DNA of 64,000 bases, from positions 47,255 through 111,254 of the forward strand of contig CAZNCE010000001.1 of NCBI GenBank assembly GCA_964571285.1, written 5' to 3'. The translations under genes were made by a program, and so were the position numbers. The notes beneath the pieces are model-generated. The model saw only the letters and a list, made by a program, of their open reading frames with translations, ran no database searches and was not told where the DNA came from. Below are positions 7,828 through 61,118 of this stretch, piece by piece (the first letter of the stretch is position 1; every line of letters begins with the position of its first letter). This stretch comes from an uncultured Nocardioidaceae bacterium. GTDB taxonomy: Bacteria; Actinomycetota; Actinomycetes; Propionibacteriales; Nocardioidaceae.

Positions 7828-9183
7828 TCAGGACGCCGGCGGTCCGCCGGGTATCGGCGCCTGCGGGTCGTACGGCGTGCGGGTGTAGATGAACGTCGCA
7901 ACCTCCAGATGGGAGGCCCCGCCGTCCGGGCGCCGATGCACGGTCAGCGTCTCGCCGGTGTGGTAGCCGGACAGGCCCAGCCAGCGGTCGGTGTCCAGTC
8001 GCCGAAACCGGAACGCGCGCCCACCGCGGTCGGCGGCCAGCCGCAGTTCGCCGTCCTGCACGCTCATCGTGAACGGCGCCTGGCCCCAGTACCACGGGCC
8101 CAGCAGGTCGCGGATGCCCGGCTCGAGCTCCGTGGTGGGCCGCCATTCCGGAGGCAGCGGCGGTTCGTGGTGCAGCACGGCCTGCACCAGCCGGCGAGGC
8201 AGGGTCTCGACGTCCACGCCGTACGCCGCGTTGGTGAGCAGCACCGCGCCGACCCCGCTGTCCCGGTCCACGAACATGCCGCAGACGAACCCCGGCATCG
8301 ATCCGGTGTGACCGACCAGCATCGGCTCGGAGCCGGTGATGCGCAGCCCGAGGCCGTAGCCACCGGTCAGGCCCTCCTCGGGGTACGCCGACTGCGGCGT
8401 GGCCATCTCGTCGACCGTGCCGGGGTCGAGGACCGTGCCGGGGCTGGCCAGCTCGGCCATCCAGCGGACCAGGTCGCCGACGGTGCTCCACAGCTGCCCC
8501 GCCGGCGCCATCGCGGCGGTGTCGTTCAGCGGCTCCTCGGTCAGCGTTCCGGCCAGCGCGTCGACCGCCAGCCCCATCGCGTGCGGTGCCTGCGGCAGCA
8601 CGGTGGTCCGGGACATGCCGAGCGGCTCGGTGATGCGCTCGCGCAGGGCGCCGGCCCAGGTGGTGCCCAGCAGCCGCCCGGCGAGCCGGCCGAGCACCGC
8701 GAAGCCCAGGTTGGAGTAGTGGTGCTGCCGGCCCGGCGGCAGCACGGCGGGCGCGTCGCGGTGGGCTGCCACCAGCTCGTCCCAGTCACGACCCGGGCTG
8801 CGCTCCCACCACGAGCCGGCGGGCTCGGCCGGCATCCCGGACGAGTGCGACAGCAGCGACCGCACCGTCCGGTCGGCATACGGCGCCTCCGGCAGGTAGT
8901 CGCCGACCGGCGCTCCCAGGTCGAGCAGCCCCCGGTCGCGCAGCTGCAGCACCAGCGCGGCGGTCATGGTCTTGGTGACCGAGCCGATGCGGTACTGCGT
9001 GTCCACGCTCGGCGGCACCCAGCCGGCGGGCTCGGCCCGGGCGACCGCGCCGCGTACCCCCGACCAGGCGCACTGGCCGTCGCGCAGCACCGCGGCGGCC
9101 AGCGAGGGGATGTGCTGGTCGGCCTGGGCCCGGGCCACCACCGCCGTCAGCTGCCGGGCGGTGGACTCCAGCACCCCTCCCAT
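7828..9183 (-). CDS. Serine hydrolase, beta-lactamase class C / PBP-like family
   Basis: SVTK (SxxK) and YSN motifs. The track ORF extends to 9402 and would overlap gcvP, so the start is trimmed to ATG 9183 (MGGVLEST); GTG 9204 is an alternative. Confidence 0.8.
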   Translation of the reverse strand: MGGVLESTARQLTAVVARAQADQHIPSLAAAVLRDGQCAWSGVRGAVARAEPAGWVPPSVDTQYRIGSVTKTMTAALVLQLRDRGLLDLGAPVGDYLPEAPYADRTVRSLLSHSSGMPAEPAGSWWERSPGRDWDELVAAHRDAPAVLPPGRQHHYSNLGFAVLGRLAGRLLGTTWAGALRERITEPLGMSRTTVLPQAPHAMGLAVDALAGTLTEEPLNDTAAMAPAGQLWSTVGDLVRWMAELASPGTVLDPGTVDEMATPQSAYPEEGLTGGYGLGLRITGSEPMLVGHTGSMPGFVCGMFVDRDSGVGAVLLTNAAYGVDVETLPRRLVQAVLHHEPPLPPEWRPTTELEPGIRDLLGPWYWGQAPFTMSVQDGELRLAADRGGRAFRFRRLDTDRWLGLSGYHTGETLTVHRRPDGGASHLEVATFIYTRTPYDPQAPIPGGPPAS

Positions 9184-55111: not shown

Positions 55112-55840
55112 TCACAGACCGGCGGCGTCCAGCAGCGCGCCGAGCTCCTCGCCGGTCAGCTCGCGGGTGTTCCCGGTGCGTAGCCGGCCGACGGCGACCG
55201 GCCCGATCGCGGTGCGCGTCAGCCGACGGACCGGGTGGCCGACCTCGGCCAGCATCCGCCGCACGATCCGGTTCCGGCCCTCGTGCAGAACCAGCTCCAG
55301 CACCGACCGGTCGGCCCCGGTGTGCAGCACCCGGAACGCGTCCGCACGGACCGGGCCGTCCGCCAGGGACACCCCCTCCCGCAGCCGGCGACCCACCCCG
55401 GGGCGGACCACACCGGCCACCTCGGCGACGTAGGTCTTCGGCACGCCGTAGGAGGGGTGGGCCAGCCGGTGCGCGAACTCCCCGTCGTTGGTGAGCAGGA
55501 TCAGCCCCTCGGTGTCGGTGTCCAGCCGCCCGACGTGGAACAGCCGCTCCGGCCGGTCCGCAACCAGGTCGGCCAGCGTCCGCCGGCCCTGCGGATCGGC
55601 CATGGTGCTGACCACGCCGCGGGGCTTGTTCGCGACCAGGTAGACGTGCCGCGACGCGGTGGGGACCCGATGTCCGTCGACCCGGATCAGGGCCGTCTCC
55701 GGATCCACCCGTACGCCGAGCCGGGTGACAACGGCGCCGTCGACGGACACCCGGCCCGCGGCGATCAGCTCCTCGCAGCGCCGGCGGCTGGCCACGCCGG
55801 AGGCGGCGAGCACCTTCTGCAGCCGGACCGGCTCAGCCAT
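55112..55840 (-). CDS. rluB: Pseudouridine synthase, RsuA/RluB family
   Basis: N-terminal S4 domain RLQKVLAASGVASRR and catalytic HVGRLDTDTEGLILLTNDG. Confidence 0.9.
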   Translation of the reverse strand: MAEPVRLQKVLAASGVASRRRCEELIAAGRVSVDGAVVTRLGVRVDPETALIRVDGHRVPTASRHVYLVANKPRGVVSTMADPQGRRTLADLVADRPERLFHVGRLDTDTEGLILLTNDGEFAHRLAHPSYGVPKTYVAEVAGVVRPGVGRRLREGVSLADGPVRADAFRVLHTGADRSVLELVLHEGRNRIVRRMLAEVGHPVRRLTRTAIGPVAVGRLRTGNTRELTGEELGALLDAAGL

Positions 55841-56459
55841 CGGCGGTCGCGGCGGGCGACTCCTCGAGTTCGGGGTCCAGGTCGTCGGCGTCCGGCAGCA
55901 GCGGGGCCAGCTCGGGCAGCTCGTCCAGGGAACCCAGGCCCATCCGCTCCAGGAAGTACGACGACGTGCGGTAGAGCACGGCGCCGGTCGACGGGTCGGC
56001 GCCGGCCTCCTCGACCAGTCCCCGGGTCAGCAGCGTGCGCATCACCCCGTCCACGTTGACCCCGCGGACAGCCGACACCCGGGCCCGGCTGACCGGCTGC
56101 TTGTACGCCACCACCGCCAACGTCTCCAGGGCTGCCTGGGTGAGCCGGGCCTGCTGGCCGTCGAGCACGTAGCGCTCCACGACCGGGGCGAACTCCTCAC
56201 GGGTGTAGAACCGCCAGCCGCCGCCCACCTCGCGCAGGTCGAAGCCCCGGCCCTGCTCGGTGTACTCCGCGGCCAGCTCGGTCAGCGCGCCGAGTACGTC
56301 GTCCGGGGAGTGCTGCACCGCCTGGGCCAGGCTGAGATGGTCCAGCGGCTGGTCGGTGACCATCAGCACCGCCTCCAGCGCCGGCCGCAGCTGTGACGGC
56401 TGCTCCGCGTCGGGCTGGTCAGCGTCCTGCTCGTCGGTCAGCGTGGGCTGCTCACTCAT
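55833..56459 (-). CDS. scpB: Segregation and condensation protein B
   Basis: ALEAVLMVTDQPL...LAAEYTEQGRGFDLREVGGGWRFYT...ETLAVVAYKQPVSRARVSAVRGVNVDGVMRTL. Start trimmed to ATG 56459. Confidence 0.9.
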   Translation of the reverse strand: MSEQPTLTDEQDADQPDAEQPSQLRPALEAVLMVTDQPLDHLSLAQAVQHSPDDVLGALTELAAEYTEQGRGFDLREVGGGWRFYTREEFAPVVERYVLDGQQARLTQAALETLAVVAYKQPVSRARVSAVRGVNVDGVMRTLLTRGLVEEAGADPSTGAVLYRTSSYFLERMGLGSLDELPELAPLLPDADDLDPELEESPAATADG

Positions 56460-57423
56460 CGGGTTCCTCTTCGACTGCGGTGGCGCCGGCTTCCCCGGGG
56501 TCCTCGGGGCCGGGCTCCGCCGCATGGGATTCCGGGTCGGTGTCGGCACCGTCCGGTCCGTCGGAGCCCTCCTCCTGCGGCGGCGCGCCCTCGAACTCGT
56601 CGATGCAGGTCAGATCGGCCGTGTCCGTGCCGGTCCAGCGTACGTGCAGCTCCCCGAGGGCGCTGAGCTGCTCGAACGCGACCACACCCTCGCGGTAGAG
56701 CTCGAGCAGCGCCAGGAACCGCGCCACGGTCGTCAGGGTGTCCGGCGAGTCCGCGGCGAGGGCGCGGAAGGTCGCGGAACCGGTACGGCGCAGCCGTTCC
56801 ACCACGACCTCCGCCTGCTGGCGGACGCTGACCTTGGGGGCGTGCAGATGGCTGAGGGCGATCACCGGTTCGGGCTTGGGCGCCAGGGCACCCGCGGCCA
56901 GCCCGGCGAACTCGTGCACGCCCAGCGTGATCAGCACCTCCGGCAGCAGGCCGGCGAACCGTTCCTCCAGCCCGACCGCACGCGGCGCCCGACGCGACTC
57001 GGTGGCCAGCCGGTCGGCGAACTCGGCAGCGACCTGCTTGAACGCGCGGTACTGCAGCAGCCGGGCGAACAACAGGTCGCGCGCCTCCAGCAGCGCCAGA
57101 TCCTCCTCGTCCTCGACCTCGGTCTGCGGCAGCAGCCGAGCGGTCTTGAGGTCGAGCAGCGTGGCCGCGACCACCAGGAACTGGCTGCTCTGCTCCAGGT
57201 CCCACTGCGGCCCGAGCGCCTTGATGTAGGCCAGGAACTCGTCGGTGACCCGCGACAGCGCCACCTCGGTGATGTCGAGCTTGTGCTTGGCGATCAGCCC
57301 GAGCAGCAGATCGAACGGACCCTCGAAGTTGTCCAGGTGGACCGCGAACGACGGTGCGGCGCCGGCCGGGGCGGTCTCCCCCGTCTCGGCCGGCCGGGAC
57401 GACTGGGCAGCGGTCGCGGTCAC
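56452..57423 (-). CDS. scpA: Segregation and condensation protein A
   Basis: FAVHLDNFEGPFDLLLGLIAKHKLDITEVALSRVTDEFL. GTG start in a GTGA overlap with the upstream small ORF. Confidence 0.9.
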   Translation of the reverse strand: MTATAAQSSRPAETGETAPAGAAPSFAVHLDNFEGPFDLLLGLIAKHKLDITEVALSRVTDEFLAYIKALGPQWDLEQSSQFLVVAATLLDLKTARLLPQTEVEDEEDLALLEARDLLFARLLQYRAFKQVAAEFADRLATESRRAPRAVGLEERFAGLLPEVLITLGVHEFAGLAAGALAPKPEPVIALSHLHAPKVSVRQQAEVVVERLRRTGSATFRALAADSPDTLTTVARFLALLELYREGVVAFEQLSALGELHVRWTGTDTADLTCIDEFEGAPPQEEGSDGPDGADTDPESHAAEPGPEDPGEAGATAVEEEPDE

Positions 57424-57743
57424 GACCCACTCAGCCGGCGGGCCAGCTCGCTGTCCGGGCCGCGTTCGTCCAGGTCGGCCAGCGCGATCGCCACCGCAGC
57501 CCGGACCAGTCGGCCGCGGTCGACCGCACCACCGAGGGTGCGGCGCAGCTGCAGCCGGGCGTGCTCGATGTCGAGCAGCTCCTCCGAGGTGATGTAGACC
57601 GTCATCTTCTCGTCGTGCTTGACCCGGCCGCTGGCCCGCCGCCGCGCCGGCGCGGGGGCCGCTCGCAGCTCGGGGCGATCGGTGGCTGGTTCGTCGTCGG
57701 ACCGGGTGGGCCGGAACAGGTCGTCAGCGGCCGGCAGGCTCAC
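57420..57743 (-). CDS. Small ORF not resolved in the track (107 aa): basic disordered N-terminus plus ribbon-helix-helix-like C-terminus
   Basis: These are the last 107 codons of track ORF 57420..58493. GTG 57743 overlaps the parA-like stop (GTGA) and its own stop overlaps the scpA GTG (GTGA). GC3 is very high throughout. The C-terminus KMTVYITSEELLDIEHARLQLRRTLGGAVDRGRLVRAAVAIALADL fits a strand-helix-turn-helix pattern. Confidence 0.6.
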   Translation of the reverse strand: MSLPAADDLFRPTRSDDEPATDRPELRAAPAPARRRASGRVKHDEKMTVYITSEELLDIEHARLQLRRTLGGAVDRGRLVRAAVAIALADLDERGPDSELARRLSGS

Positions 57744-58864
57744 TCGTCGGGACAACGGGCCAGCACCTCCCGGGCCAGCTGGCGATAGGCCTCCGCCCCC
57801 GGCGAGCCGGCGGCGTAGCTGGTGATCGGCTCCCCGGCGACGGTGGAGTCGGAGAACTTGACCGTGCGCCGGATGACGGTGTGGAACACCGTGTCGCCCC
57901 ACGCGTCCACCAGCCGCTGCAGCACCTCTCGCCCGTGCAGGGTACGACTGTCGTACATGGTGCCGAGCAGCCCGTCGATGCGCAGCCTCGGGTTGAGTCG
58001 CTCGGTGACCTTGTCGATGGTCTGCTTCAGCAGCGCGACACCGCGCAGCGCGAAGTACTCGCACTCCAGCGGCACGATCACCCCGTCGGCGGCGGTGAGC
58101 GCGTTCACGGTGAGCAGACCCAGCGAGGGCTGGCAGTCGATCAGCACCACGTCGTAGTCGTCGAGCACCGGCTCCAGCACGCGGGCGAGGGTCTGCTCGC
58201 GCGCGACCTCCTGCACGAGCTGCACCTCGGCGGCCGACAGGTCGATGTTGGACGGCAGCAGGTCCAGGCCGTCCACGTCGGTGCCCACGATCGCGTCCTT
58301 GGCCGATACGCCCGGCGACATCATCACGTCGTAGACGGTCAGCTCCAGGTCGTGCGGGCTGAGCCCGAGGCCGACCGACACCGAGCCCTGCGGGTCGCAG
58401 TCGACCAGCAGCACCTTGCGGCCGTACTCCGCGAGGGCGGCACCGAGGTTGATGGTCGTCGTGGTCTTGCCGACCCCGCCCTTCTGGTTGCACATGGCGA
58501 TCACTCGGCCCCGCCCGTGCCCACGAACCGGCGCCGGCTCCGGGAGATCGGGAATCGCACGACCGGTGGGTCCGAGCTCGGGCTCGGTCTCGGTGGACTC
58601 CGCAGTGGCCTGCCGGGTGTCCTGCTCGGTGGGGAGGACCGCTACCGCGGCGGTCGCCGCTGCCTGCTCGGCGGCGTGCTCGGCCGCGTGCTCGGCGTCG
58701 GGCTCGCCGACCTGGTCGGCGGGGGGTTCGCGATCGCCCCCGGCGGACTCACCGACCCCGGTCCGCCATTCGGCCGCACCGAGCGGGGCTACCCGCGGCG
58801 GGACCGTCGGGGCTGCGGCGCTCCCGTAGGGGCTGAACACCGGACCTGATGTCGATTCGTTCAC
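57740..58864 (-). CDS. ParA/Soj-like ATPase (Rv1708-like) with ~110-aa low-complexity N-terminal extension
   Basis: Deviant Walker A MCNQKGGVGKTTTTINLGAALA, plus VLLVDCDPQGS. Start placed at GTG 58864 (VNESTSG) after GGAGAGGTAAGG. The track ORF extends to 59707 across xerD. Confidence 0.85.
   Translation of the reverse strand: MNESTSGPVFSPYGSAAAPTVPPRVAPLGAAEWRTGVGESAGGDREPPADQVGEPDAEHAAEHAAEQAAATAAVAVLPTEQDTRQATAESTETEPELGPTGRAIPDLPEPAPVRGHGRGRVIAMCNQKGGVGKTTTTINLGAALAEYGRKVLLVDCDPQGSVSVGLGLSPHDLELTVYDVMMSPGVSAKDAIVGTDVDGLDLLPSNIDLSAAEVQLVQEVAREQTLARVLEPVLDDYDVVLIDCQPSLGLLTVNALTAADGVIVPLECEYFALRGVALLKQTIDKVTERLNPRLRIDGLLGTMYDSRTLHGREVLQRLVDAWGDTVFHTVIRRTVKFSDSTVAGEPITSYAAGSPGAEAYRQLAREVLARCPDE
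58666..58713. repeat. Four imperfect 12-bp tandem units inside the parA-like N-terminal extension
   Basis: GCTCGGCGGCGT GCTCGGCCGCGT GCTCGGCGTCGG GCTCGCCGACCT on the plus strand, encoding ...DAEHAAEHAAEQAA.... Confidence 0.6.
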
Positions 58865-58914
58865 GTGCCGCCTTACCTCTCCGCCGATACGTCGACCCGC
58901 CGGTCGACTTGCAG

Positions 58915-58944
58915 ACTTTAGGACCTGCGCAGAAGGCCGTTCAA
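58915..58944 (-). promoter_or_regulatory. Candidate promoter of the parA-like operon
   Basis: Minus strand TTGAAC (58944-58939), an 18-nt spacer, then TAAAGT (58920-58915). Downstream leader contains GTCGACCGGCGGGTCGAC. Confidence 0.4.
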
Positions 58945-58958
58945 GGCGGCCGGAGGAT

Positions 58959-59002
58959 CTGTGCACGGACCCTGCCTGCCTGTGCACAACCCTGTCACAG
59001 GG
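58959..59002. repeat. Two CTGTGCAC octamers 21 bp apart plus a 13-bp palindrome, just upstream of the candidate parA -35
   Basis: CTGTGCAC at 58959-58966 and 58980-58987. CCCTGTCACAGGG at 58990-59002. Confidence 0.55.
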
Positions 59003-59076
59003 TGGGGATAAACCTGGGGACACACGCCCGGGGACGGCGAACTTCAGCGGCAGCATCGCTGCGGGCCGCGGGACCC

Positions 59077-59952
59077 TCAGGCGCGGGCCCGCGGATGCGC
59101 GGCGGCGTACACCTCGCGCAGCGAGTCGACCGTGACCAGCGTGTAGACCTGGGTGGTGGTGACCGAGGCATGCCCGAGCAGCTCCTGCACCACGCGCACG
59201 TCGGCGCCGCCGTCGATCAGGTGGGTGGCGAACGAGTGCCGCAGCATGTGCGGCGACACCTCCGCCCGCACGCCGGCCCGCTGCGCGGCGGACCGCAGCA
59301 CGGTCCAGGCGCTCTGCCGGGACAACCGGCCGCCGCGGGCGTTCAGGAACAGCGCCGGACCACCGGCCGCCCGGTGCAGGGCCGGCCGGGCCCGGACCAG
59401 GTAGGCGTCCAGCGCGTCCCGGGCGAACGACCCGAGCGGCACCACACGCTGCTTGCCGCCCTTGCCGCGCAGCAGCACGCCGCCGGTCTCCAGGTCCAGA
59501 TCGTCGACGTCCAGGCCGACCGCCTCGGAGATCCGCGCCCCGGTGCCGTACAGCAACTCCAGCAGCGCCCGGTCGCGCAGCGCCAGGCTGGTCCCGGGCG
59601 CGCCCGCGGTCTCGATCAGCCGGGTCACGTCGTCCACCGGCAGCGCCTTCGGCAGCCGGCGTGCGGGTGCCGGTGGTCGTACCCCGGCGGCCGGGTCGTG
59701 CTCGCACACCCCCTCGCGCACCAGGAACCGGTGCAGGCCGCGCACCGCGACCACCGCACGCGCCGCGCTGCCGGCCCCCAACGCGGGGTGGTCGGCGTCA
59801 CCCTCCCGCAGCCGCATCAGGAACTCCCCCACCGTGGCCTCGGTCACCTGGTCGGGGTCGTCGATCCCGGCCCCGGCCAGGAAGTCGAGGTAGCGGTGCA
59901 GGTCCCGCCGGTACGACGCGACCGTGTTGGCCGCCAGGCCGCGCTCCACCAC
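59077..59952 (-). CDS. xerD: Tyrosine recombinase XerD
   Basis: [24 protein letters not shown] at the N-terminus. Catalytic region ...ARISEAVGL...[11 protein letters not shown]...[14 protein letters not shown] (R-H-R-Y). Conserved chromosomal context. Confidence 0.9.
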
Positions 59953-60002
59953 CAGGTGGTCCAGGTAGGTGCGCAGCGCCGGCCCGAGCCGGCCGGTGGC
60001 GC

Positions 60003-61118
60003 TCAGCCGAGCACCTCTTCGACGTCCCGGTGCGGCAGCCCGTGGGCCCGCGCCACCGGCTCGTTCACCACTTCGCCGGTGTGCACGTTCAGCCCCAGGG
60101 CGAATCCGGGATCCGCCCGCATCGCGGCCTGCCAGCCGCGGTCGGCCAACTCGGTCACGTACGGCAGCGTGACGTTGGTCAGCGCGTACGTCGAGGTGTG
60201 CGGCACCGTGCCGGGCATGTTGGTGACGCAGTAGAACACCGCATCATGAGCGGCATAGGTCGGGTCGGTGTGCGTGGTCGGCCGCGAGTCCTCGAAGCAG
60301 CCGCCCTGATCGATCGCGATGTCGACCAGCACCGCGCCGGGCCGCATCCGCGACACCAGGTCGCTGGACACCAGCCGCGGCGCCCGCGCACCAGGGACCA
60401 GCACCGCCCCGATCACCAGGTCTGCGTCGACCACCGCCTTCTCGATCTCGAAGGTGTTCGAGGCGACGGTCTGCAGATGGCCCTGGTAGATCCGGTCGGC
60501 CTGCCGCAGCCGCTCGATGTTGATGTCGAGCATCAGCACCTCGGCCTGCATGCCCAGCGCGATGGCCGCGGCGTTCATCCCCGACACCCCCGCGCCGAGC
60601 ACCACGGTCTTGGCCGCATACACGCCCGGCGCGCCGCCGAGCAGGATCCCGCGCCCGCCGCCCGCACGCATCAGGTGGTAGGCGCCGACCTGCGGCGCAA
60701 GCCTCCCGGCGATCTCGCTCATCGGCGCCAACAGCGGCAGCCGCCCCTCGACGTCCTCCACGGTCTCGTACGCGATCGCGGTCACGCCGCTGCGCAGCAG
60801 CGCATCGGTGCACTCGCGGGACGCGGCCAGGTGCAGGTAGGTGAACAGCAACTGGCCCTTGCGCATCCGCTCGTACTCGGGGCCGACCGGCTCCTTGACC
60901 TTCAGTACCAGGTCGGCGGCGTCCCACACGCCAGCGGCGTCGGGCACCAGCGTCGCCCCGGCGGCGGCGAAGTCCTCGTCCGGGATCGCGGAGCCCACTC
61001 CCGCACCCGCCTCGACCAGCACCTGGTGGCCGTGCCGGGACAGCTCGTGCACGCCGGCCGGGGTGATCGCCACGCGGAACTCGTTGTCCTTGATCTCACG
61101 TGGCACACCGATCCTCAC
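60003..61118 (-). CDS. ald: Alanine dehydrogenase
   Basis: Trimmed to GTG 61118: [26 protein letters not shown] fold [13 protein letters not shown]. 371 aa. Confidence 0.93.

What the first reader, a model, noticed from the sequence alone, without database searches (positions are those of the whole stretch)
57420..58864. Small RHH-like ORF wedged between the parA-like gene and scpA: a ParA plus small-DNA-binder pair feeding into the ScpAB condensin operon
A 107-codon ORF is visible in the track only as the tail of a 357-aa ORF. It starts with a GTG overlapping the parA-like stop (GTGA) and ends with a TGA overlapping the scpA GTG (GTGA). It keeps very high GC3. Its layout is a basic, probably disordered N-terminal half (…APAPARRRASGRVKHDEK) followed by a strand-helix-turn-helix pattern (MTVYIT / SEELLDIEHARLQLRR / TLGGAVD / RGRLVRAAVAIALADL). 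This is the layout of ParG-type ribbon-helix-helix centromere-binding partners of type Ib ParA ATPases. As I remember the M. tuberculosis locus (Rv1708-Rv1709) there is no such gene. If real, it would link a ParA/RHH module directly to ScpAB expression.
Basis: partly seen in the sequence, partly recalled or inferred. Interest (0 to 1): 0.6.

Follow-up and report, generated by a model that had tools for sequence, protein, structure and literature searches.

The report
Conserved small partner of orphan ParA2
The small reading frame between the parA-like gene and scpA is a real, widely conserved but uncharacterised actinobacterial gene; it probably encodes a ribbon-helix-helix DNA binder with a conserved N-terminal peptide and is the best candidate partner for the "orphan" ParA2/PldP ATPase.

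Summary
The ORF is real. Its likely start is a TTG at 57755, which gives 111 aa (MSRRVSLP...), not the GTG at 57743. The TTG has a GGAGG 10 nt upstream, and 70 of 74 relatives have a start codon at this position.

About 4,000 homologues exist (677 clusters at 50% identity). All are called "hypothetical protein", and none reaches a Pfam or NCBIfam cut-off. The gene is present in 107 of 201 sampled Actinomycetes genomes, and also in Nitriliruptoria and deep-branching MAGs. It was not found in several families where parA2 abuts scpA directly.

In all 129 loci examined it directly follows the second ParA (ParA2/PldP/Rv1708 class). The overlap with scpA is specific to some lineages.

The architecture has three parts: an N-terminal peptide RRxSLPGAxELFR (dN/dS 0.19), a variable neutral linker, and a C-domain (dN/dS 0.33).

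- AlphaFold gives a high-confidence helix-loop-helix for the monomer.
- A natural tandem duplicate folds as strand-helix-helix twice, with the two strands paired. Its best PDB matches are the single-chain RHH proteins TraY and VirC2, but the E-values are not significant.
- The invariant residues K50, T52 and Y54 sit on alternate strand positions.

This layout matches ParG-type partners of ParA ATPases. Homology to ParG, DNA binding and ATPase stimulation remain untested. The scan had already noted candidate operator boxes upstream of parA2 on this same window.

The parts
57420..57755 (-). Small gene: 111 codons plus stop, with a TTG start. It encodes the candidate ParA2 partner protein.
   Evidence: Searches give the sequence. 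Searches give the homologues. One search gives start-codon conservation and dN/dS.
57766..57770 (-). Shine-Dalgarno GGAGG, 10 nt upstream of the TTG start. It lies inside the 3' end of parA2.
   Evidence: Read directly from the sequence.
57705..57755 (-). Conserved N-terminal peptide MSRRVSLPAADDLFRPT (residues 1-17). It is the proposed ParA2-contacting and ATPase-stimulating peptide.
   Evidence: R3, R4, L7, P8, A10, L13 and F14 are at least 90% conserved in 137 diverse members. dN/dS is 0.19. The functional role is inferred.
57636..57704 (-). Variable, low-complexity linker (residues 18-40). It is 25 to about 200 aa long in relatives.
   Evidence: Alignments. dN/dS is about 1.1. pLDDT is below 50.
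57423..57635 (-). C-terminal domain (residues 41-111). It consists of a beta-strand EKMTVYIT, helix A, the turn G..VDRGR, helix B and an extra short C-terminal helix. It is a probable ribbon-helix-helix dimerisation and DNA-binding domain.
   Evidence: The AF2 monomer has pLDDT above 90. The tandem natural homologue folds as (strand-helix-helix) twice, and its top Foldseek hits are TraY and VirC2. RHH_3 is the only recurrent Pfam hit.
57588..57611 (-). Predicted ribbon strand E49-T56. K50, T52 and Y54 are invariant and alternate with the hydrophobic residues M51, V53 and I55.
   Evidence: Invariant columns. The strand is assigned in the tandem model.
57740..58864 (-). parA2 (PldP/Rv1708/SCO1772 class). 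It is a Walker-type ParA ATPase with a low-complexity N-terminal extension of about 115 aa.
   Evidence: Pfam AAA_31 at 1e-62. The genome also has a canonical parA-parB pair elsewhere, and ParA2 is 40% identical to that ParA.
56452..57423 (-). scpA. Its start overlaps the small gene's stop (GTGA).
   Evidence: Pfam SMC_ScpA at 6e-56. Sequence.
55833..56549 (-). scpB.
   Evidence: Pfam SMC_ScpB at 2.5e-50.
58959..59002 (.). Candidate operator or centromere-like boxes upstream of parA2: CTGTGCAC twice, 21 bp apart, then the palindrome CCCTGTCACAGGG. They are of the TGT-SS-ACA type.
   Evidence: Phased TGTGCACA boxes occur upstream of parA2 in 38 of 80 Nocardioidaceae loci, at 0.96 per kb against 0.04 per kb in the rest of the loci. 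Binding by the small protein is not shown.

Best explanation
The ORF is a genuine gene: 111 aa, TTG start at 57755, translationally coupled to parA2 upstream and, in this lineage, to scpA downstream. It encodes the cognate small partner of the second, so-called orphan, chromosomal ParA ATPase of Actinomycetota (ParA2/PldP/Rv1708 class).

The protein has the layout of a type Ib (ParG/omega-like) centromere-binding protein. Its C-terminal domain forms a ribbon-helix-helix dimer, and the invariant ribbon residues K50, T52 and Y54 read a conserved DNA site. A flexible linker carries a conserved basic N-terminal peptide (RRxSLPGAxELFR) that contacts ParA2 and probably stimulates its ATPase.

Shown here: the gene is real, it is conserved, it has this architecture, and it is invariably adjacent to parA2. 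Supported by modelling: the RHH-type fold. Inferred and untested: DNA binding, the identity of the DNA site (candidate TGT-SS-ACA boxes at the parA2 promoter) and ATPase stimulation.
For: Real gene:
- 3,974 homologues and 677 clusters at 50% identity.
- dN/dS is 0.19 and 0.33 for the two conserved modules, against about 1.1 for the linker.
- The start codon is conserved and has a Shine-Dalgarno sequence.
- The gene is retained in 10 of 10 genomes of a family with streamlined 1.3-1.5 Mb genomes.

Partnership with ParA2:
- The gene lies immediately downstream of parA2 in all loci examined: 30 of 30, 19 of 19 and 80 of 80.
- These loci span Nocardioidaceae, Propionibacteriaceae, Streptomyces-size genomes, Nitriliruptoria (Egicoccus) and uncultured lineages.
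- The link to scpA is variable.
- A distant ParA (34% identity) in another family is also followed by a distant homologue with the same layout.

Fold:
- The AF2 monomer has pLDDT above 90 for helix-loop-helix preceded by an extended segment.
- A natural protein carries two tandem copies of the domain. It folds as E-H-H(-H) twice, with pLDDT above 90 in both copies and pTM 0.69. Only two strands exist, so they must pair with each other.
- The top Foldseek hits for that model are the three TraY chains of the F relaxosome (probability 0.82-0.95) and VirC2.
- TraY is a single-chain RHH dimer (PMC12117103).
- RHH_3 is the only Pfam family hit by several members.
- The invariant K50, T52 and Y54 alternate with hydrophobic residues.

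Context: a 2025 preprint finds that ParB does not stimulate PldP and that its partner 'has yet to be identified' (10.1101/2025.07.02.662783).
Against: - In the tandem model the alignment covered only the first copy.
- There are no homologues on plasmids, so the family cannot be tied to known type Ib partition loci.
- No physical interaction, DNA binding or expression data could be obtained.
- The candidate DNA boxes are lineage-restricted: the TGTGCACA boxes were seen upstream of parA2 in Nocardioidaceae loci (38 of 80) but hardly in other lineages (one isolated box), and the GTCGACA motif is enriched only in Propionibacteriales and Streptomyces-like genomes. The putative DNA-reading residues, in contrast, are invariant across the phylum.
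- ParA2 functions without this gene in lineages that lack it.
Confidence: 0.62

Rival explanations
1. It is a plain RHH autorepressor of the parA2(-scpAB) operon. It binds the boxes at the parA2 promoter but has no direct action on the ParA2 ATPase.
For: RHH proteins are typically small operon repressors. Conserved palindromic boxes and a GTCGACA element lie at or near the parA2 promoter in Propionibacteriales and Streptomyces-like genomes.
Against: The most constrained part of the protein is an N-terminal peptide separated from the fold by a neutral linker (dN/dS 0.19). A simple repressor does not need this. In type Ib systems, autoregulation and ATPase stimulation coexist, so this rival may be only half of the truth.
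Confidence: 0.2
2. It is an adaptor that links ParA2 to a non-DNA cargo, such as divisome or septal components or the SMC-ScpAB complex. In this reading the C-domain serves only as a dimerisation or protein-binding module.
For: PldP/Rv1708-class proteins are linked to septum placement (PMC4255298; titles and abstracts of the papers listed). The neighbourhood xerD-parA2-x-scpAB is conserved. The domain has an extra conserved C-terminal helix (DSxLVRRL) beyond the canonical RHH.
Against: The invariant, alternating, polar ribbon residues K50, T52 and Y54 and the DRGR helix-B cap are the pattern expected for DNA contact. No cargo candidate is conserved next to the gene across lineages.
Confidence: 0.12
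3. It is not a functional gene. The frame is open by chance in GC-rich DNA, or it is an antitoxin-like remnant.
For: Long spurious ORFs are common here. For example, the 357-aa and 655-aa frames overlap real genes.
Against: Thousands of homologues have conserved modules, start codon and position. dN/dS is below 1. AlphaFold models the fold with high confidence. No toxin-like neighbour is present.
Confidence: 0.02

Closest known systems
ParG of plasmid TP228 (type Ib ParF/ParG/parH) and related small RHH centromere-binding proteins such as omega of pSM19035
   Same: It is encoded directly downstream of a Walker-type ParA. It has a flexible basic N-terminal tail followed by a C-terminal RHH-type dimer domain. 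Candidate repeated boxes lie upstream of the operon. The description of the ParF/ParG/parH system comes from the abstracts of PMC3130281 and PMC7308502 and from my own knowledge.
   Different: No detectable sequence homology. The gene is chromosomal only, with no plasmid relatives. Its partner ATPase is a Soj-like ParA with a long N-terminal extension, 40% identical to the chromosomal ParA. The N-peptide motif RRxSLPGAxELFR is distinct. The linker is much longer and more variable. The domain has an extra C-terminal helix.
VirC1/VirC2 of Agrobacterium Ti plasmids
   Same: This is a ParA-like ATPase paired with an RHH-fold DNA binder outside a classical partition system. VirC2 (PDB 2rh3) is among the structural matches of the tandem model.
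   Different: VirC2 is a single-chain RHH acting in T-DNA processing and is plasmid-borne. The Foldseek match is weak (E 2.7). There is no sequence similarity.
F-plasmid TraY (single-chain tandem RHH)
   Same: It is the best structural match of the natural tandem version of the domain, with probability 0.82-0.95 and target-normalised TM-score (TMt) 0.53-0.66. It shows that two repeats in one chain can reproduce the RHH dimer.
   Different: TraY is a relaxosome accessory protein. It has no ParA partner and shows no sequence similarity.
Chromosomal ParB (Spo0J) N-terminal ParA-stimulating peptide
   Same: This genome's own ParB begins MNTRRGLGRGLGALIPS. The small protein begins MSRRVSLPAADDLFRPT. 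Both have RR at positions 3-5 followed by a short Gly/Pro-containing segment and a hydrophobic L-[IF]-x-P/[ST] end.
   Different: The resemblance is by eye only and was not tested statistically. The small protein has no ParB CTPase or HTH domains.
PldP (C. glutamicum), Rv1708/MSMEG_3743 (mycobacteria) and ParA2 SCO1772 (Streptomyces): the 'orphan' second ParA
   Same: The upstream gene belongs to this class and sits in the same xerD-parA2-scpAB neighbourhood.
   Different: These ATPases are described as orphans with no known partner. The small gene reported here is the co-encoded candidate partner in the lineages that have it. It was not found in the sampled families where parA2 abuts scpA.

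Membership tests
Ribbon-helix-helix (RHH; Arc/MetJ/CopG) superfamily | Beta-strand, helix, turn, helix topology in a domain of about 45 residues | tested here: met
   The AF2 monomer shows an extended segment followed by H57-74 and H80-101 (111-aa numbering) with pLDDT above 90. In the tandem model each copy is E-H-H.
Ribbon-helix-helix (RHH; Arc/MetJ/CopG) superfamily | Obligate dimer with a two-stranded antiparallel ribbon formed between subunits | tested here: inconclusive
   A true dimer could not be modelled. In a natural tandem duplicate, the only two strands (E15-22 and E118-125) are both assigned as strand, so they pair with each other. The top structural matches are single-chain RHH dimers. 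The Foldseek E-values are 0.26 or worse, and the alignment covered only one copy.
Ribbon-helix-helix (RHH; Arc/MetJ/CopG) superfamily | Alternating polar (DNA-facing) and hydrophobic (core-facing) residues in the strand | tested here: met
   The strand reads K50-M51-T52-V53-Y54-I55-T56. K50, T52 and Y54 are invariant in 137 members.
Ribbon-helix-helix (RHH; Arc/MetJ/CopG) superfamily | Significant profile match to an RHH family (Pfam clan CL0057) | tested here: not met
   No hit at E<=1 for the window protein. Only sub-threshold RHH_3 hits in 7 of 137 members (best E 0.029) and RHH_7 in one member. The PDB profile search found nothing.
Type Ib partition centromere-binding protein (ParG-like) | Encoded immediately downstream of, and co-transcribed with, a Walker-type ParA | tested here: met
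   Adjacent or overlapping in all 129 loci examined. The 16-nt overlap in the window, with the Shine-Dalgarno sequence inside parA2, is seen.
Type Ib partition centromere-binding protein (ParG-like) | Flexible N-terminal tail that stimulates the ParA ATPase through an arginine or lysine | not testable with these tools
   A conserved basic N-peptide followed by a disordered linker is present. Its activity is unknown.
Type Ib partition centromere-binding protein (ParG-like) | Binds an array of short repeats (centromere or operator) next to the operon | not testable with these tools
   Candidate phased TGTGCACA boxes are upstream of parA2 in 38 of 80 Nocardioidaceae loci and in the window. Apart from one isolated box, they were not seen in other lineages.
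Type Ib partition centromere-binding protein (ParG-like) | Sequence homology to ParG (PF09274) or omega, and a plasmid or mobile-element context | tested here: not met
   No Pfam hit. No match in 72,556 plasmid records. The locus is a conserved chromosomal neighbourhood.
ParB/Spo0J family | ParB N-terminal (CTPase) domain and HTH DNA-binding domain | tested here: not met
   No ParBc or HTH hit. The genuine ParB is encoded elsewhere in the genome.

The most novel reading that the evidence does not exclude
The parA2 + small-RHH pair may be an ancestral, chromosome-borne, type-Ib-like positioning module of Actinomycetota that acts on the terminus region.

In this reading the RHH protein nucleates on TGT-SS-ACA boxes at the parA2 promoter. 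That promoter lies 42-50% of the chromosome away from dnaA in 8 of 10 complete genomes. The conserved N-peptide then drives ParA2 to position this terminus-proximal locus at the septum. With it would come XerD and ScpAB, or the division site itself.

This would make the protein the missing partner of the 'orphan' PldP/ParA2 class.
Probability: 0.15. Interest if true: 0.85.

Novelty: new variant of a known kind. Interest (0 to 1): 0.6.

Why it matters
The second ParA of Actinomycetota (PldP in Corynebacterium, Rv1708 in mycobacteria, ParA2 in Streptomyces) affects division-site placement. It is treated as an orphan: a 2025 preprint shows that ParB does not stimulate it and states that its partner is still unknown.

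The present family is a co-encoded partner candidate. It is conserved in about half of the sampled Actinomycetes and in other classes of the phylum, and it is retained even in 1.3-1.5 Mb genomes.

This gives a direct and cheap experimental route in tractable organisms such as Streptomyces or Nocardioides: two-hybrid assays, ATPase stimulation by the N-peptide, and ChIP-seq. It also shows that a type-Ib-style ParA/RHH pair can be a stable chromosomal feature rather than a plasmid device. The family currently has no Pfam or NCBIfam model.

Tried and rejected
- Pfam and NCBIfam scans of the window protein found nothing. PHROGs gave only noise.
- A profile search of all PDB sequences found nothing.
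- I tried to build an RHH_3 comparison set from actinobacterial genomes. Only 4 hits turned up in 61 genomes, so I dropped it.
- A plasmid search by tblastn found no match.
- Literature. From memory I had linked the Streptomyces homologue to 'HaaA/ParH'. The library holds no such paper. On reflection HaaA is more likely SCO1997, a different protein, so I make no such claim.
- The F-plasmid accession lookup failed. I identified the TraY chains from the paper instead.
- A genome-wide scan for TGT-SS-ACA clusters found three other clusters. These turned out to be different motifs (GTGGACA and GTCCACA). TGTGCACA is not over-represented genome-wide: 26 observed against 25.5 expected. There is therefore no evidence for a dispersed regulon.
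- The GTCGACA element is not enriched upstream of parA2 outside Propionibacteriales and Streptomyces-like genomes.
Full report
**Observation.**
All genes in this stretch lie on the minus strand. In order they are ald (60003-~61115), xerD (59077-59952), a parA-like gene (57740-58864), the small frame (57420-57743 as given), scpA (56452-57423), scpB (55833-56549) and a pseudouridine synthase. The small frame appears in the ORF list only as the tail of a 357-aa ORF. The two GTGA overlaps are as described. GC3 is 0.88.

Homologues consistently begin M-[S/P]-R-R-V-S-L-P. The window has an in-frame TTG four codons upstream, at 57755-57753, preceded by GGAGG with a 10-nt spacer. In 70 of 74 relatives the equivalent codon is a start codon. 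I therefore place the gene at 57420-57755 (111 aa), overlapping parA2 by 16 nt.

**Is it a gene?**
Yes.
- A word-indexed search found 3,974 relatives at E<=0.01. The named ones are all 'hypothetical protein' from Nocardioides, Nocardioidaceae, Pedococcus, Solicola and similar taxa.
- An exhaustive profile search found 677 clusters at 50% identity.
- Pairwise Nei-Gojobori dN/dS over 75 Propionibacteriales genes is 0.19 for residues 1-17, about 1.1 for the linker and 0.33 for residues 41-111.
- No Pfam or NCBIfam model matches.

**Distribution.**
The gene was found in 76 of 401 sampled Actinomycetota genomes and in 107 of 201 sampled genomes of the same class, covering 58 of 114 genera.
- It is universal in the window's own family (9/9).
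- It is universal in a genus with 7-10 Mb genomes (11/11), where the protein is about 210 aa because the linker is long.
- It is universal in a family with 1.3-1.5 Mb genomes (10/10).

Exact-sequence look-ups name Egicoccus halophilus and Nitriliruptorales (class Nitriliruptoria), Aestuariimicrobium and uncultured Actinomycetota among the carriers. The gene was not found in several families, for example 0/9, 0/11 and 0/30. In five complete genomes of four such families, parA2 is followed directly by scpA with no room for the gene.

**Context.**
The gene immediately follows parA2 in every locus examined: 30/30, 19/19 diverse loci and 80/80 Propionibacteriales loci. scpA follows directly in 77 of 80 Propionibacteriales loci and in a few other lineages. 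Elsewhere 0.7-3 kb of other DNA separates the two, inside an otherwise conserved block ald-xerD-parA2-small-(insert)-scpA-scpB-rluB. The invariant link is therefore to ParA2, not to ScpAB.

The genome also has a canonical parA-parB pair on another contig. ParA2 is 40% identical to that ParA. One distant ParA (34% identity) in another family is followed by a distant homologue (profile E 1e-6). That homologue has an N-terminal peptide MGKRRKVPEDLMGTIL and a more canonical RHH-looking segment, VGITVNLS...PSKSEIAEVAF.

**Architecture.**
The protein has three modules:
1. An N-terminal peptide, M-x-R-R-x-S-L-P-G-A-x-E-L-F-R-x-T.
2. A low-complexity linker of 25 to about 200 residues.
3. A C-domain, R44..H47.E49-K50-[MI]-T52-V-Y54..(helix)..G75..D79-R80-G81-R82.V84-R85..(helix)..G99..S102...R107-L108.

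The invariant residues K50, T52 and Y54 occupy alternate positions of a short strand whose other positions are hydrophobic.

**Fold.**
- The AlphaFold2 monomer (30-sequence alignment) gives pLDDT above 90 for residues 50-107 of the 107-aa version. It has two long helices, a short third helix and a disordered N-half.
- As expected for half of an obligate dimer, the monomer finds nothing significant in the PDB.
- The exhaustive search turned up one natural protein that carries two tandem copies of the C-domain at its C-terminus. It is a 1,514-aa TIR/TPR protein from a Streptomyces vWA-MoxR locus.
- Folding those 180 residues gave strand-helix-helix(-helix) twice, with pLDDT above 90 in both copies and pTM 0.69. 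The two strands are the only strands in the model, so they pair with each other. The caveat is that the alignment covered only the first copy.
- The best PDB matches of this model are three chains of the F-plasmid relaxosome entries (probability 0.82-0.95, TMt 0.53-0.66, E 0.26-0.95) and VirC2. [quoted passage not shown]
- When 137 members were scanned one by one against Pfam at E<=10, the only family hit by more than two members was RHH_3 (7 members, best E 0.029).

Taken together, an RHH-type dimer is the best-supported fold, at roughly 85%. No single test reaches statistical significance.

**Mechanism proposed.**
The layout is a basic, conserved N-terminal peptide on a flexible tether plus an RHH dimer, encoded directly after a Walker ParA. 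This is the layout of type Ib centromere-binding proteins such as ParG and omega. In those proteins the tail stimulates the ATPase and the RHH binds repeats that serve as both operator and centromere (my own knowledge; abstracts).

The N-peptide also resembles, by eye, the ParA-stimulating N-terminus of this genome's own ParB (MNTRRGLGRGLGALIPS). I therefore propose that the protein is the cognate partner of ParA2. DNA binding, its target and ATPase stimulation are inferred, not shown.

**Candidate DNA sites.**
I confirmed them.

I also found that palindromic TGTGCACA boxes, often 11, 21 or 42 bp apart, occur upstream of parA2 in 38 of 80 Nocardioidaceae loci. Their density there is 0.96 per kb, against 0.04 per kb in the rest of the loci. 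They are followed by a TAGAGT -10-like element and a (T)GTCGACA(A) element. The GTCGACA element is present in 68 of 79 Propionibacteriales loci and 7 of 9 Streptomyces-like loci. It is not enriched in other lineages, nor in genomes that lack the gene. In the window's genome the TGTGCAC cluster is unique, but the motif is not over-represented overall.

These sites are plausible operators. Their lineage restriction, however, sits uneasily with the phylum-wide invariance of the ribbon residues.

**Known or new?**
The literature in the library describes the ATPase as 'ParA2' present in all actinobacteria (PMC4255298), as PldP, and as a MinD-like protein in mycobacteria. The PldP preprint reports that ParB does not stimulate it and that a partner remains to be found. 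I found no paper on the small protein.

It is annotated in public genomes only as a hypothetical protein. I rate it a new variant of a known kind: a ParA plus small RHH partner. What differs is that the pair is chromosomal and phylum-wide, shows no detectable homology to the plasmid proteins, and has its own N-peptide motif.

**Limits.**
The genomes searched are unnamed, so I give the lineages lacking the gene only as anonymous families.

Noticed in passing
window 55833-61115, and the equivalent loci in G052, G272, G097, G137, G404, G436, G510, G473, G308 and G572: The xerD-parA2-(small gene)-scpAB cluster lies 42-50% of the chromosome length away from dnaA in 8 of 10 complete genomes (the other two are at 28% and 37%). 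This is terminus-proximal, and it holds whether or not the small gene is present. Genome sizes are rounded and the genomes are related, so this is only indicative.
   Followed up: partly
L135:4001-8545 (tandem domains at 8003-8542): A 1,514-aa TIR/TPR 'SAV_2336 N-terminal domain-related' protein of Streptomyces sp. NPDC093094 sits in a vWA-MoxR (VMAP) and CHAT conflict-system locus. It ends in two tandem copies of the small protein's C-domain. It is a single instance in the databases.
   Followed up: partly
L124:2-1359: A lower-GC actinomycetotal genome has a distant pair: a ParA (34% identity) followed by a 205-aa homologue. The homologue has the N-peptide MGKRRKVPEDLMGTIL, an RHH-like middle domain and an extra C-terminal region. 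The pair lies near gltB.
   Followed up: partly
L129:5011-5139 (G171:C2:194710-194844): A second, partial copy of the C-domain (residues about 67-109) lies about 0.8 kb downstream of the full gene in one genome.
   Followed up: no
window 58865-59076 and L031-L110 upstream of parA2: A conserved TAGAGT element is followed 25-35 nt later by (T)GTCGACA(A). In Nocardioides the second element lies in the 5' leader. In Streptomyces-like genomes and in this window the corresponding bases fall in codons 3-5 of ParA2 (MNEST...). This suggests a DNA- or RNA-level element conserved regardless of coding status.
   Followed up: partly
window 57420-58493 and 57740-59707 (minus strand): Long spurious ORFs of 357 and 655 aa run through real genes in other frames. 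A database protein (P0221, 303 aa) is such a mis-call, joining the ParA2 C-terminus frame to the small gene.
   Followed up: no
G525 (contigs C6 and C10): One genome carries two full-length copies on different contigs. One copy is unusually close to the window's protein (E 2e-50), which may indicate contamination or a recent transfer.
   Followed up: no
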